From Escherichia coli (GTDB taxonomy: Bacteria; Pseudomonadota; Gammaproteobacteria; Enterobacterales; Enterobacteriaceae): a stretch of 64,000 nt of DNA. Of this stretch, positions 53,101 to 56,100 are shown in pieces (position 1 is the stretch's first letter; each line of letters starts with the position of its first letter). The stretch lies in assembly GCF_011045215.1 (NCBI RefSeq), contig NZ_CP049201.1; one strand, written 5' to 3'. A program made the position numbers.

Positions 53101-56100
53101 GCCGATCGTCTGGCCGATCTCGCGGTTCAGGTCTGGCAAGCGCCTTCTCTTCCTGAAGAGGTTTTGGCTGTTTATCGGGGACAGCCTGAAAACAAAACCA
53201 GTTACAGCCTGAGTGATTATCCTTTTCTTGCTGATGGTTCGCATAGCCGGGTGTTATTCGATCATCTTCGCGATGAAGTTATGCGCCTGGACGCAGGGAT
53301 CACGCAGGAAGTATTGAAGCTATATATTGCGTTTAAAGCTGAAACGAATTTTGTTGATGTTGTGCCGCAAAAAAGCCGACTGCGATTGTCGCTTAATATG
53401 CAGTTTCATGAACTGGTCGATCCGAAAGGTATTGCCAAAGATGTGACAAATGTTGGGCGCTGGGGCAATGGCGATGTGGAAATTGGTTTCAGTGACCTCG
53501 CACAACTTCCTTACGTTATGGGATTAATTCGTCAGGCATTTGAAAAACAGATGGAGAGCGCGTTGGTCTAACACGGCGAATAATACCCGGTAGCACTGGT
53601 GCTACCGGGTCAATGTATCAGGCAACTTTCTGTTTACCCGCAATCACTCCAATAAACTCCTGCACCTGCTTTTGTTTACGTGCCGACAGTTTGCACACCT
53701 GGCGTAGCGACTGCATCAGTTCGCTCTCTTCGGCGGTGGGTGGTTGGGCGGTGAGGACAATACAGCCTTCCATCACTTTGACATCTACCGCCGTGCCGGT
53801 GGCAAAACCGGCGGCTTCCAGCCACTGACCTTTCAGGGTGATGGCGGGAATACGGCTGTAATCCGGGTAGCGACTCGCATAACTCACGGTTAATTGACGG
53901 TTATTTGCCGGGGAGACTTCTGCTTCGAACGGTTGTGCAATAGAATGCGTGTCAGTCATAACTGCTATTCTCCGATAATAGTGATTGTGATTAGCGGTGC
54001 GGGTGTGTTGGCGCACATCCGCACCGCGCTAAATACCTGGATATATCATCAGTAAATACAGGGAAAGTCCAGCTAAAAATAGAATAAAATAGGCAGTTTC
54101 TGGAATAATTTAAATATATTTGCGTGAGTTATGATTGGCATGAAATAATAAAAAGCGCACCGGAAAGGTGCGCCAGAAAATAATGATCAGGATTTTTTAC
54201 GCGAGGCTTTTTTACCCCCGTTGGCTGCGCGTTCAGCTTTGATTTTTTCCAGCAACGCGGCGGCGCTGTTTTCTCCGCTGATTAAATCCGGGTTTTCGGC
54301 CCGCCACTGGGCGGTGAGTTCTCCACGGAACGCTTTTGCCAGGATGGATTGCGTCAGGTTGTTGACGCGGGCTAAGGCGTTGTTGACCTGTTTTTCTATG
54401 GTGTCGGCGTAGGCGAAGAGCTGCTCGACGCGGCGAACGATTTCGGCTTGTTCATAGAGTGAATATAAAGGTACCATTATTGATGAAATTTTAGAAATAC
54501 TTAATGTATAGAGTCCTGCTCCAGATGTGGCGCGATTAATAATTTCTGCCTTACCTTGTGCAGACATTAAATAGAAAAGGAGAAACCTTGGAGAAATTAT
54601 TTCTCTATTTGCCCTAACTTTTATTAAATGGTTTTGATGTACGCACTCTTTGATTTCATCACGCCATAGTGCAGCTCGACCAATTTGATCAAGACTACCA
54701 TTGCCTTCAACTATTAATAAATCTTCATACTCTAATGATACACGATCCAGTTCTTTTTGTTGAACTCCGATTTCGGAAATATCTTCTAATCTCAATTCAT
54801 TTTCATAGACATTTGCCACACGCAAATATGGAACTTGCAACTCAAAATTATTACGTTTCGAGTTTTTTGTAAGACCGCCAATCACTTGGGCTATTTGACT
54901 AATATTGAAATAATTAATTGGGGAGATATTTGTAAGTTTCCCACTTACAGCCGCAGCCAATACCGCCTGACGAAAACGTTTCATGATTTGTGGGATTTTC
55001 TCAAGGCGTGCTTTGGTGCTGTCTACTTGCGCCAGCAGCGTATCGAGTTTTTCCGCAATTATTTTTTGCTCGGCAAGTGGTGGCAACGGAAGTAGGGTAT
55101 CTTGAAGTGTCCTGGAAGAAAGATGCTTCACCGTAACCGAGGACGTATTTGCATTGATTGCGGATAAATATCCTGGTAAGGCATGATAGAAAAATCTTTT
55201 ATTGTATTTGTCTTCCTGAACTTCGATTTTACATACTCGTTGATTTAACAGAGCGGGCTCCGAGCGCCATATAGTTGTATTAAAATCACCATCCATTCCC
55301 ACGATTAAGTCTTCGGGATATACCCAATATCCCTCAGGAATTTGCCCCGAGTAATAAGTCGATGTATTACCTTTAAGAACATCACGAATTCTAATTAATG
55401 GTACACCTTCTTTACGATTATTAAATTCTGCCGACTTAAAAGCAAAACCGTTTGTGATGTTTGCTACGGAATCCATTGGAATACGTAACCAGCTCTCATG
55501 GATTGAAAGTAACCCATTGATATTTTGCTCAATTAATTCTTTTGATGTTGAGTTGAAACTCATTCCTTCACCCCACCAAACGCTTCTTCCAGCAACTGAC
55601 GCTGCGCATCCGCCTCATCGCTCGCCCCCAGTTCACGCATCAGCGCATCCAGTTCAGACAGCGCCTGCACCAGCTCGCCCATCGCTTCTGCCGCTAATAC
55701 ATCCGGCTCCGGCAGGCTGTCGGCATCAATACTGTCTTTATCTTTCAGCCAGGAGATATCCAGCGAATCGGATTTCGCGGTGCGGATCCACTCGCGGCTG
55801 AACTTACGCCAGCGGCTGGTAGCCAGGTGCTGGTCGGTGTTTTTGTTCTCTTCGCTGTCGGCAACTTCCGTCTCTTCGGCGTTAAAACTCCATTCCCCTT
55901 CACTACGCGGGCTTAAACCGTGCGGGTCTTCGCCATACACGCGCTCAAACGGCTGCAAATACTCGTCGGTAAACGGCGTGCGTTTACCAAAGCTCGGCAT
56001 ATTGGTCCGCAGGTCGTACACCCACACGTCATCGGTGCAGTTCTTATCCTGATGCGGGTTCGCCACTGTACCTTTGGTAAAGAACAGCACGTTGGTCTTC

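What the first reader, a model, noticed from the sequence alone, without database searches (positions are those of the whole stretch)
54187..55563. hsdS with AT-rich, mosaic target-recognition domains
Seen in sequence: the conserved central and C-terminal segments of the specificity subunit have core-like composition, whereas one variable region, mainly about 54450-55500, is distinctly AT-rich. Established knowledge: family IA type I systems share conserved framework regions, and specificity is set by two exchangeable target-recognition domains. Inference: the recognition domains were imported by recombination, so this system probably recognises a different target from the K-12 enzyme. The sequence itself cannot tell me the specificity.
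Basis: partly seen in the sequence, partly recalled or inferred. Interest (0 to 1): 0.45.

Follow-up and report, generated by a model that had tools for sequence, protein, structure and literature searches.

The report
Recombinant type I restriction specificity gene
This is an intact E. coli type I restriction-modification specificity gene (hsdS) assembled by recombination from two known DNA-recognition cassettes, so it should recognise a target different from K-12's; this kind of variation is well known, and the AT-richness that drew attention occurs in every allele of the family, including K-12's.

Summary
The ORF at 54187-55563 (-) is an intact 458-aa family IA HsdS. It is translationally coupled to hsdM, and HsdM and HsdR are 97.4% and 99.0% identical to EcoKI.

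**Composition.** TRD1 is 37% GC, TRD2 34%, the central conserved region 49%, the C-terminal region 55% and hsdM 57%. There are two AT-rich blocks, not one. EcoKI, EcoBI, E. albertii, Klebsiella, Salmonella and even a 62%-GC Kushneria system show the same pattern. AT-richness is therefore a family-wide property of TRDs, not evidence that this allele was imported.

**Mosaicism.** This is shown by divergence instead.
- 55028-55655 (hsdM 3' end, TRD1, half the central region) differs at 3/628 nt from another E. coli allele; hsdM differs at 55/1494.
- 54422-54939 (TRD2) differs at 4/518 nt from an E. albertii allele; flanks differ by about 4%.

**Specificity.** TRD1 is 96% identical to EcoBI TRD1, which reads TGA. 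TRD2 is only 23-30% identical to the EcoBI and EcoKI TRD2s. It occurs in 1 of 5426 complete E. coli genomes. I predict TGA(N7-8) plus an uncharacterised half-site.

**Verdict.** This is an ordinary new member of a known kind.

The parts
54187..55563 (-). hsdS coding sequence (458 aa), specificity subunit of a family IA type I restriction-modification system
   Evidence: ORF. Pfam Methylase_S E=3.3e-33 with two stretches. Matches EcoKI HsdS in PDB 2y7c at E=3e-93 over residues 21-458. The exact protein is P0240, present in 96 index blocks of public assemblies.
55099..55563 (-). TRD1 (aa 1-155), EcoBI type; predicted half-site TGA
   Evidence: 96.1% aa and 96.6% nt identity to EcoBI TRD1 from REL606. 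99.4% nt identity to the E. coli P0004 allele. 20.7% aa identity to EcoKI TRD1. GC 37.4%, GC3 0.32. Present in 113 of 5426 complete E. coli genomes.
54931..55098 (-). Central conserved region (aa 156-211), a framework helix; contains the crossover between the two parental tracts
   Evidence: 56 aa in all alleles compared. 92.9% aa identity to EcoBI and 82.1% to EcoKI. The DNA alignment shows the switch from P0004-like to E. albertii-like sequence near 54940-54952. GC 48.8%.
54457..54930 (-). TRD2 (aa 212-369), E. albertii/Klebsiella type; half-site unknown
   Evidence: 99.2% nt and 98.7% aa identity to E. albertii P0009. About 79-81% aa identity to Klebsiella, Salmonella and Citrobacter HsdS. 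22.8% aa identity to EcoBI TRD2 and 29.5% to EcoKI TRD2. Found in only 1 of 5426 complete E. coli genomes even in distant blastn mode. GC 33.8%, GC3 0.22.
54187..54456 (-). C-terminal conserved region (aa 370-458), a framework helix and tail
   Evidence: 97.8% aa identity to EcoKI and 94.4% to EcoBI. GC 54.8%, GC3 0.63.
55028..55655 (-). Recombinant tract A: hsdM 3' end, TRD1 and the first half of the central region, nearly identical to the E. coli P0004-type allele
   Evidence: 3 mismatches in 628 nt against L007, versus 55 in 1494 nt in the rest of hsdM; Fisher p=6e-6. dS 0.02 versus 0.134.
54984..55027 (-). Allele-specific patch of four substitutions (two synonymous, plus Q189K and L194M) between the two tracts
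   Evidence: Substitutions at 55027, 55006, 54999 and 54984 are absent from all four comparators. The motif ARLEKIPQIMKRFRQ is found only in this allele's own cluster among 266 sampled proteins.
54422..54939 (-). Recombinant tract B: last 9 nt of the central region, TRD2 and the first ~35 nt of the C-terminal region, nearly identical to an E. albertii allele
   Evidence: 4 mismatches in 518 nt against L005, versus 35 in 822 nt downstream (p=9e-5) and 59 in 1586 nt in hsdM (p=3e-4). dS 0.02 versus 0.104 (C-terminal region) and 0.136 (hsdM).
55560..57149 (-). hsdM (529 aa), m6A methyltransferase subunit; its stop codon overlaps the hsdS start (ATGA)
   Evidence: Pfam N6_Mtase E=1.7e-93 and HsdM_N. 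97.4% aa identity to EcoKI HsdM. ATGA overlap and AAGGA upstream of the hsdS ATG.
57226..60738 (-). hsdR (1170 aa), translocase/endonuclease subunit
   Evidence: Pfam ResIII, Helicase_C, HSDR_N and EcoEI_R_C. 99.0% aa identity to EcoKI HsdR.
54154..54174 (-). Terminator-like hairpin followed by a T-run, 13 nt after the hsdS stop codon
   Evidence: Consensus scan only; counts in the region are not above shuffles. Position and sequence GGCGCACCTTTCCGGTGCGCT TTTTATTATT.

Best explanation
**What it is.** This is a functional family IA (EcoKI-family) HsdS. One HsdS binds two HsdM to form the M2S1 methyltransferase and, with two HsdR, the R2M2S1 restriction enzyme. Each TRD reads one half of a bipartite target. 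The two conserved helical regions fix the distance between the TRDs.

**How the allele arose.** It is a recombinant.
- TRD1 belongs to the EcoBI type. It arrived on a ~630-nt tract shared with other E. coli alleles.
- TRD2 belongs to a type otherwise seen in a 431-aa HsdS of E. albertii and, at about 80% identity, in Klebsiella, Salmonella and Citrobacter. It arrived on a ~520-nt tract.
- The crossovers lie in the conserved framework: the hsdM 3' end, the central region and the start of the C-terminal region. This is what homologous recombination between alleles predicts.

**Predicted target (inferred).**
- The predicted target is 5'-TGA(N7-8)...-3'.
- All five characterised IA enzymes have 8 bases between the two methylated adenines. 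The partner T (A on the other strand) should therefore lie 9 nt after the A of TGA.
- The bases read by TRD2 are unknown.
- The target differs from both EcoKI and EcoBI.

**AT-richness.** The AT-rich TRD composition is a long-lived property of TRD cassettes across hosts, not a mark of this event.

**Shown versus inferred.**
- Shown: gene integrity, family membership by sequence and locus, the mosaic tracts, and the rarity of the combination.
- Inferred: enzymatic activity, the TGA half-site and the spacer length.
- Not determined: the direction of transfer.
For: **Integrity and family.**
- hsdR, hsdM and hsdS are intact, with HsdM 97.4% and HsdR 99.0% identical to EcoKI.
- hsdM and hsdS share the ATGA overlap.
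- The locus lies between mrr and symE, as in K-12.

**TRD identities.**
- TRD1 is 96.1% aa identical to EcoBI TRD1.
- TRD2 is 98.7% aa and 99.2% nt identical to E. albertii P0009.

**Mosaic tracts.**
- Tract A has 3/628 mismatches against 55/1494 in the flank (p=6e-6).
- Tract B has 4/518 against 35/822 (p=9e-5).
- dS is 0.02 inside the cassettes and 0.10-0.14 in the flanks.

**Cassette shuffling.** Among 43 sampled HsdS, the EcoBI-type TRD1 pairs with 17 TRD2 types. This TRD2 type pairs with 10 TRD1 types. Only this allele's own cluster has both.

**Selection and persistence.**
- Purifying selection acts on TRD2: omega is 0.06 against Klebsiella and Salmonella.
- The identical protein is kept in at least 96 index blocks, across E. 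coli backgrounds whose hsdR differs by about 2.3%.

**Literature.**
- The interval between methylated adenines is 8 in all five characterised IA enzymes, and N-TRD/C-TRD hybrids such as StySQ and StySJ give hybrid targets (Loenen et al. 2014, PMC3874165).
- Swapping hsdS alone between IA systems switches specificity in vivo (Mehershahi and Chen 2021, PMC8287963).
Against: - No methylome or restriction data exist for this allele.
- TRD1 differs from EcoBI TRD1 at 6 residues, which could in principle alter the half-site.
- TRD2 has no characterised relative that I could find.
- No consensus promoter was detected upstream of hsdM by the simple scan. The same compact spacer is, however, the form found in Salmonella and Klebsiella loci.
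- The four allele-specific substitutions in the central region (Q189K, L194M) have unknown effect on assembly.
- The near-identity of TRD2 with E. albertii could reflect transfer in either direction, or through a third species.
Confidence: 0.85

Rival explanations
1. One reading: the AT-rich TRDs are a compositional scar of recent import from a low-GC donor, and this is what sets the allele apart from K-12.
For: TRD GC is 34-37% and GC3 0.22-0.32, against 55-57% GC and GC3 0.63-0.71 in the adjacent framework and hsdM. The composition breakpoints coincide with the TRD boundaries.
Against: - EcoKI and EcoBI TRDs are equally AT-rich.
- The same TRD2 type keeps GC3 at 0.21-0.27 in Klebsiella, Salmonella, Kushneria and Competibacteraceae, despite saturated dS and framework GC3 up to 0.83.
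- The composition is therefore old and family-wide. It neither dates nor identifies this allele's recombination.
Confidence: 0.08
2. The hybrid S subunit or the system is inactive: a recombinant that does not assemble, or an operon that is not expressed. The allele would then be a neutral relic with no specificity.
For: No expression or methylation data exist. There are two unusual substitutions in the central helix. No consensus promoter was found in the 76-bp hsdR-hsdM spacer.
Against: - All three genes are full length.
- The exact 458-aa protein is conserved across many assemblies and diverged backgrounds.
- Purifying selection acts on both TRD types (omega 0.06-0.16).
- Crossovers in the conserved regions are the route by which active hybrids such as StySQ and StySJ arose (PMC3874165).
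- The compact spacer is the Salmonella/Klebsiella form.
Confidence: 0.07
3. Both half-sites are new: the six amino-acid differences from EcoBI TRD1 change the TGA half-site as well.
For: Six of 155 residues differ. Single substitutions can change TRD specificity in some systems (general knowledge, not tested here).
Against: - The changes are mostly conservative: D23E, S29P, S46A, D52E, A95T and C99R.
- omega is 0.155 across TRD1.
- In the IA family, TRDs at this level of identity share half-sites, for example EcoKI and StySPI both read AAC (PMC3874165).
Confidence: 0.1

Closest known systems
EcoBI (E. coli B; family IA; TGA N8 TGCT)
   Same: Same family framework and locus. TRD1 is 96.1% aa and 96.6% nt identical; the central region is 92.9% and the C-terminal region 94.4% identical. 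The TGA half-site is therefore probably shared.
   Different: TRD2 is unrelated at the level that matters for specificity: 22.8% aa identity, and 158 versus 174 residues. The TGCT half-site should not be recognised.
EcoKI (E. coli K-12; family IA; AAC N6 GTGC)
   Same: HsdM is 97.4%, HsdR 99.0% and the C-terminal region of HsdS 97.8% identical. The position between mrr and symE, the operon order and the ATGA coupling are the same, and the TRDs are equally AT-rich.
   Different: TRD1 is 20.7% and TRD2 29.5% identical. K-12 carries an ERIC-type repeat between hsdR and hsdM, and mcrBC downstream. Here the repeat is absent and a GmrSD-family gene replaces mcrBC.
431-aa HsdS of Escherichia albertii (P0009/P0008) and its Klebsiella michiganensis counterpart (P0046)
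   Same: TRD2 is 98.7% aa and 99.2% nt identical to the E. albertii allele, and about 79% aa identical to the Klebsiella one. The E. albertii locus also has symE followed by a GmrSD gene downstream.
   Different: TRD1 is a different, shorter type (25% aa identity, 128 versus 155 residues). Its specificity is also uncharacterised as far as I could find.
StySQ and StySJ, recombinants of StySPI and StySBI (Salmonella, family IA)
   Same: Same mechanism: a crossover in the central conserved region joins the N-TRD of one allele to the C-TRD of another and yields the predicted hybrid target (PMC3874165 Table 2).
   Different: Those hybrids were obtained or analysed experimentally and their targets are known. 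Here the hybrid is natural, its parents are inferred from sequence, and its target is unmeasured.

Membership tests
Type I R-M, family IA (EcoKI family) HsdS | S-subunit architecture: two variable TRDs alternating with two conserved helical regions | tested here: met
   Two Pfam Methylase_S stretches. The alignment with EcoKI, EcoBI and other alleles shows a 56-aa central block and an 89-aa C-terminal block conserved between variable blocks. Matches EcoKI HsdS in the PDB at E=3e-93.
Type I R-M, family IA (EcoKI family) HsdS | Conserved regions, and the partner HsdM and HsdR, closely similar to EcoKI (family assignment by sequence) | tested here: met
   C-terminal region 97.8%, central region 82.1%, HsdM 97.4% and HsdR 99.0% aa identity to EcoKI.
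Type I R-M, family IA (EcoKI family) HsdS | Allelic chromosomal position in the immigration control region, with gene order hsdR-hsdM-hsdS | tested here: met
   The order yjiA, mrr, hsdR, hsdM, hsdS, symE matches K-12 and REL606.
Type I R-M, family IA (EcoKI family) HsdS | Genetic complementation and antibody cross-reactivity with EcoKI subunits (the original family criteria) | not testable with these tools
   Needs experiments. It is supported indirectly by the published hsdS swap between IA systems (PMC8287963).
Type I R-M, family IA (EcoKI family) HsdS | Bipartite target with m6A on both strands, 8 bases between the methylated adenines | not testable with these tools
   The interval of 8 is documented for EcoBI, EcoKI, StyLTIII, StySPI and EcoDI (PMC3874165 Table 1). 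The central region has the same 56-aa length here. A methylome is needed.
EcoBI specificity (TGA N8 TGCT) | Both TRDs of EcoBI type | tested here: not met
   TRD1 is 96.1% identical but TRD2 only 22.8%.
EcoKI specificity (AAC N6 GTGC) | Both TRDs of EcoKI type | tested here: not met
   TRD1 is 20.7% and TRD2 29.5% aa identical. There is no DNA-level match of TRD2 to K-12.

The most novel reading that the evidence does not exclude
**Reading.** The persistent AT-richness of TRDs is not a transfer scar. It is a maintained state that is decoupled from the host genome.

**Evidence so far.** TRD GC3 is about 0.2-0.35, next to framework GC3 of 0.6-0.85. This holds in hosts from E. coli to Kushneria even after synonymous sites are saturated.

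**One mechanistic reading.** Conserved framework segments recombine often between alleles and are pushed GC-ward, either by GC-biased gene conversion or by host-level selection. TRDs are too diverged ever to pair with another allele. They therefore sit at the AT-biased mutational equilibrium.

**Alternatives.** Selection for AT-rich TRD DNA (for example H-NS binding or slow translation), or a fast-moving inter-host cassette pool.

**Status.** This rests on nine loci only. I did not establish whether it has already been described.
Probability: 0.3. Interest if true: 0.45.

Novelty: new member of a known kind. Interest (0 to 1): 0.2.

Why it matters
**Practical use.**
- The allele defines the type I restriction barrier and part of the m6A methylome of the E. 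coli lineages that carry it.
- It gives a concrete prediction to look for in long-read data: TGA at one end, with the partner T 9 nt after the A.
- It can be used when engineering these strains, for example by pre-methylating plasmids.

**Evolutionary point.** It is a clean natural example of TRD cassette exchange. The junctions are mapped, and one cassette is shared almost identically between E. coli and E. albertii.

**Methodological point.** It is a caution against reading low GC in hsdS variable regions as evidence of recent horizontal transfer. The K-12 reference allele shows the same composition.

None of this would surprise a specialist.

Tried and rejected
**Looking for the TRD2 half-site.**
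1. Literature searches found nothing usable: E. albertii methylome, TGA-N7/N8 motif spellings, E. coli hsdS TRD catalogues and Klebsiella michiganensis methylome.
2. A protein search with TRD2 alone returned about 310 relatives, at 45-65% identity, from diverse bacteria. None carried a characterised name.
3. A PDB sequence search found only EcoKI HsdS models and distant S subunits, which say nothing about the half-site.
4. A distant-mode blastn of TRD2 against 5426 complete E. coli genomes found only OZ197100. TRD2 therefore matches no type I TRD present in that collection at about 70% nt identity or better.

**Readings rejected.**
- The allele has EcoBI specificity: rejected because of TRD2.
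- The missing 124-bp hsdR-hsdM segment is a promoter deletion that inactivates hsdMS: rejected. The missing segment is a dispersed ERIC-like repeat with a median of 13 copies per genome. The window carries the uninterrupted form also seen in Salmonella and Klebsiella.

**Correction to my own reading.** I first read the 920 genomes as carriers of TRD1. A TRD1-only search gives 113.

**Papers not held.** Murray 2000 and Sibley and Raleigh 2004 could not be read.
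Full report
**1. What is at the coordinates**

- The ORF 54187-55563 on the minus strand encodes a 458-aa protein. It has two Pfam Methylase_S stretches and matches the EcoKI specificity subunit in the PDB at E=3e-93.
- It is the last gene of an hsdR (57226-60738), hsdM (55560-57149), hsdS operon. The hsdM stop and hsdS start overlap as ATGA, behind an AAGGA motif. A terminator-like hairpin follows 13 nt after the stop.
- HsdM is 97.4% and HsdR 99.0% identical to the EcoKI subunits.
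- The locus lies between mrr and symE, as in K-12 and E. coli B.
- By sequence, organisation and position this is a family IA system. The classical criteria of complementation and antibody cross-reaction cannot be tested here.

**2. The compositional observation**

Alignment with EcoKI, EcoBI and other alleles gives four segments.

| Segment | Residues | Coordinates | GC | GC3 |
|---|---|---|---|---|
| TRD1 | 1-155 | 55099-55563 | 37.4% | 0.32 |
| Central conserved region | 156-211 | 54931-55098 | 48.8% | 0.43 |
| TRD2 | 212-369 | 54457-54930 | 33.8% | 0.22 |
| C-terminal conserved region | 370-458 | 54187-54456 | 54.8% | 0.63 |
| hsdM (for comparison) | - | 55564-57149 | 56.7% | 0.71 |

- A likelihood segmentation that knows nothing about homology puts breakpoints at 54447/8, 54939/40 and 55143/4.
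The AT-rich 'region' is two blocks separated by a conserved segment of intermediate composition.
- Against the 64-kb window, which holds other AT-rich islands, the TRDs are only at the 9th-15th percentile. Against their own operon the contrast is very large.

**3. AT-richness does not separate this allele from K-12**

- EcoKI TRDs are 37.2% and 34.3% GC. EcoBI TRDs are 35.7% and 31.4%. The E. albertii and second E. coli alleles are similar.
- The same TRD2 type has GC3 of 0.25 in Klebsiella michiganensis and 0.22 in Salmonella. Synonymous divergence from the window is saturated there (dS about 2.3), and omega is 0.06.
- In Kushneria, where hsdM GC3 is 0.81 and the HsdS C-terminal region's GC3 is 0.83, TRD2 GC3 is 0.27. 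In a Competibacteraceae contig it is 0.21.
- The framework tracks the host; the TRDs do not.

**4. Direct evidence of mosaicism**

- *Tract A.* Against an E. coli allele with a different TRD2 (P0004, locus L007), the window has 55 mismatches in the first 1494 nt of hsdM. It then has only 3 in the 628 nt from 55655 to 55028, which cover the hsdM 3' end, TRD1 and half the central region (Fisher p=6e-6).
- *Tract B.* Against an E. albertii allele with a different TRD1 (P0009, L005), it has 4 mismatches in the 518 nt from 54939 to 54422. These cover the end of the central region, TRD2 and the start of the C-terminal region. There are 35 in the next 822 nt (p=9e-5) and 59 in 1586 nt of hsdM (p=3e-4).
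- *Synonymous divergence.* dS is 0.02 inside each cassette and 0.10-0.14 in the flanks.
- *Patch between the tracts.* Between the two tracts lie four substitutions (54984-55027; Q189K, L194M and two silent). They are found in none of the comparators, and only in this allele's own cluster among 266 sampled proteins. Their origin is unexplained; a third parent or junction-associated mutation are possibilities.
- *Junctions.* All junctions lie in conserved sequence, as homologous recombination between alleles predicts.

**5. Combinatorics and frequency**

- Among 43 sampled relatives with both TRDs delimited, the EcoBI-type TRD1 is joined to 17 different TRD2 types. The window's TRD2 type is joined to 10 different TRD1 types. 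Only the window's own cluster has both.
- In 5426 complete E. coli genomes, TRD1 occurs in 113. TRD2 and the full gene occur in one, OZ197100.
- In wider public assemblies the exact protein (P0240) is indexed in 96 blocks. It occurs in backgrounds whose hsdR differs by about 2.3%. In all eight loci shown it is linked to symE and a 697-aa GmrSD-family gene.
- The closest locus, GCA_910665095.1, is 99.97% identical to the window over 19.8 kb.

**6. Mechanism and predicted target**

- The subunit assembly and the split of the target between the N-terminal and C-terminal TRDs are established knowledge for type I enzymes. They are documented for IA hybrids in Loenen et al. 2014 (PMC3874165).
- A swap of hsdS alone between IA systems switches specificity in vivo (PMC8287963).
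- TRD1 is 96.1% identical to EcoBI TRD1 with mostly conservative changes. I infer the half-site TGA.
- TRD2 is 22.8% identical to EcoBI TRD2 and 29.5% to EcoKI TRD2. The second half-site is neither TGCT nor GTGC.
- All five characterised IA enzymes have 8 bases between the methylated adenines, and the central region here has the standard 56 residues. The T paired with the second methylated A should therefore lie 9 nt after the A of TGA. That gives TGA(N7-8) followed by an unknown half-site.
- I could not find a characterised relative of TRD2.

**7. Verdict**

- This is a correct identification of an ordinary feature: an uncharacterised but conventional IA specificity allele made by TRD cassette exchange, a process known since the 1980s.
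- It is a new member of a known kind.
- The one point of wider interest is that TRD AT-richness is maintained independently of host composition. It rests on nine loci, and I did not establish whether it has been described before.

Noticed in passing
window 57150-57225 (hsdR-hsdM spacer): The spacer is 76 bp here. It is 200 bp in K-12, REL606, OZ197100 and E. albertii. The missing 124-125 bp is a dispersed ERIC-like repeat with a median of 13 copies per E. coli genome. The window has the uninterrupted form also found in Salmonella and Klebsiella, and in E. coli loci L016 and L017.
   Followed up: yes
window 51478-53571 (+): A 697-aa GmrSD-family gene (GmrSD_N, GmrSD_C and DUF5655 domains; best PADLOC model 'Orf5', E=1.6e-222) occupies the place of mcrBC downstream of symE, as in E. 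albertii. It accompanies this hsdS allele in all eight loci shown. In OZ197100 the identical intact ORF is annotated as two features, one flagged partial.
   Followed up: partly
window 1-6160: A low-GC island (about 31-35% GC) that is not shared with OZ197100, which has a JetD-containing segment there instead. It holds a 638-aa protein with a GmrSD_N domain that matches the PADLOC model NsnA (E=2.4e-115) at 683-2599 (-). It also holds two ORFs without family matches at 3500-4051 and 4099-5547 (+).
   Followed up: partly
window 6169-7098 (-) and 7178-7828 (+): Two HNH-domain proteins lie next to nanS. The first corresponds to a gene annotated in OZ197100 as a phosphorothioated-DNA-binding restriction endonuclease.
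   Followed up: no
window 51478-60738 compared with OZ197100 (L001): Identity to OZ197100 is 100% from the GmrSD gene through hsdS. It drops to 98.1% in hsdM and about 97.7% in hsdR and beyond. The same hsdS-symE-GmrSD block therefore sits next to different hsdM/hsdR alleles in different strains, which points to further recombination junctions in the immigration control region.
   Followed up: partly
window 54984-55027: A cluster of four substitutions (Q189K, L194M and two silent) in the central conserved region, lying between the two recombinant tracts. It is unique to this allele's cluster among the sampled relatives. Its origin is unexplained.
   Followed up: partly
L022 4001-5341 (Kushneria) and L023 2522-3907 (Competibacteraceae): HsdS genes carrying the same TRD2 type (62-65% aa identity) keep TRD GC3 at 0.21-0.38, while their framework regions have GC3 of 0.62-0.83. 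In Kushneria an AAA_21/RloB gene pair sits between hsdR and hsdM, and a large helicase-like gene follows hsdS.
   Followed up: partly
window 40737-41313: A segment within the pentapeptide-repeat protein gene region is only about 88% identical to OZ197100, between flanks at 97-99%. It lies in a low-GC stretch at about 40500-42700.
   Followed up: no
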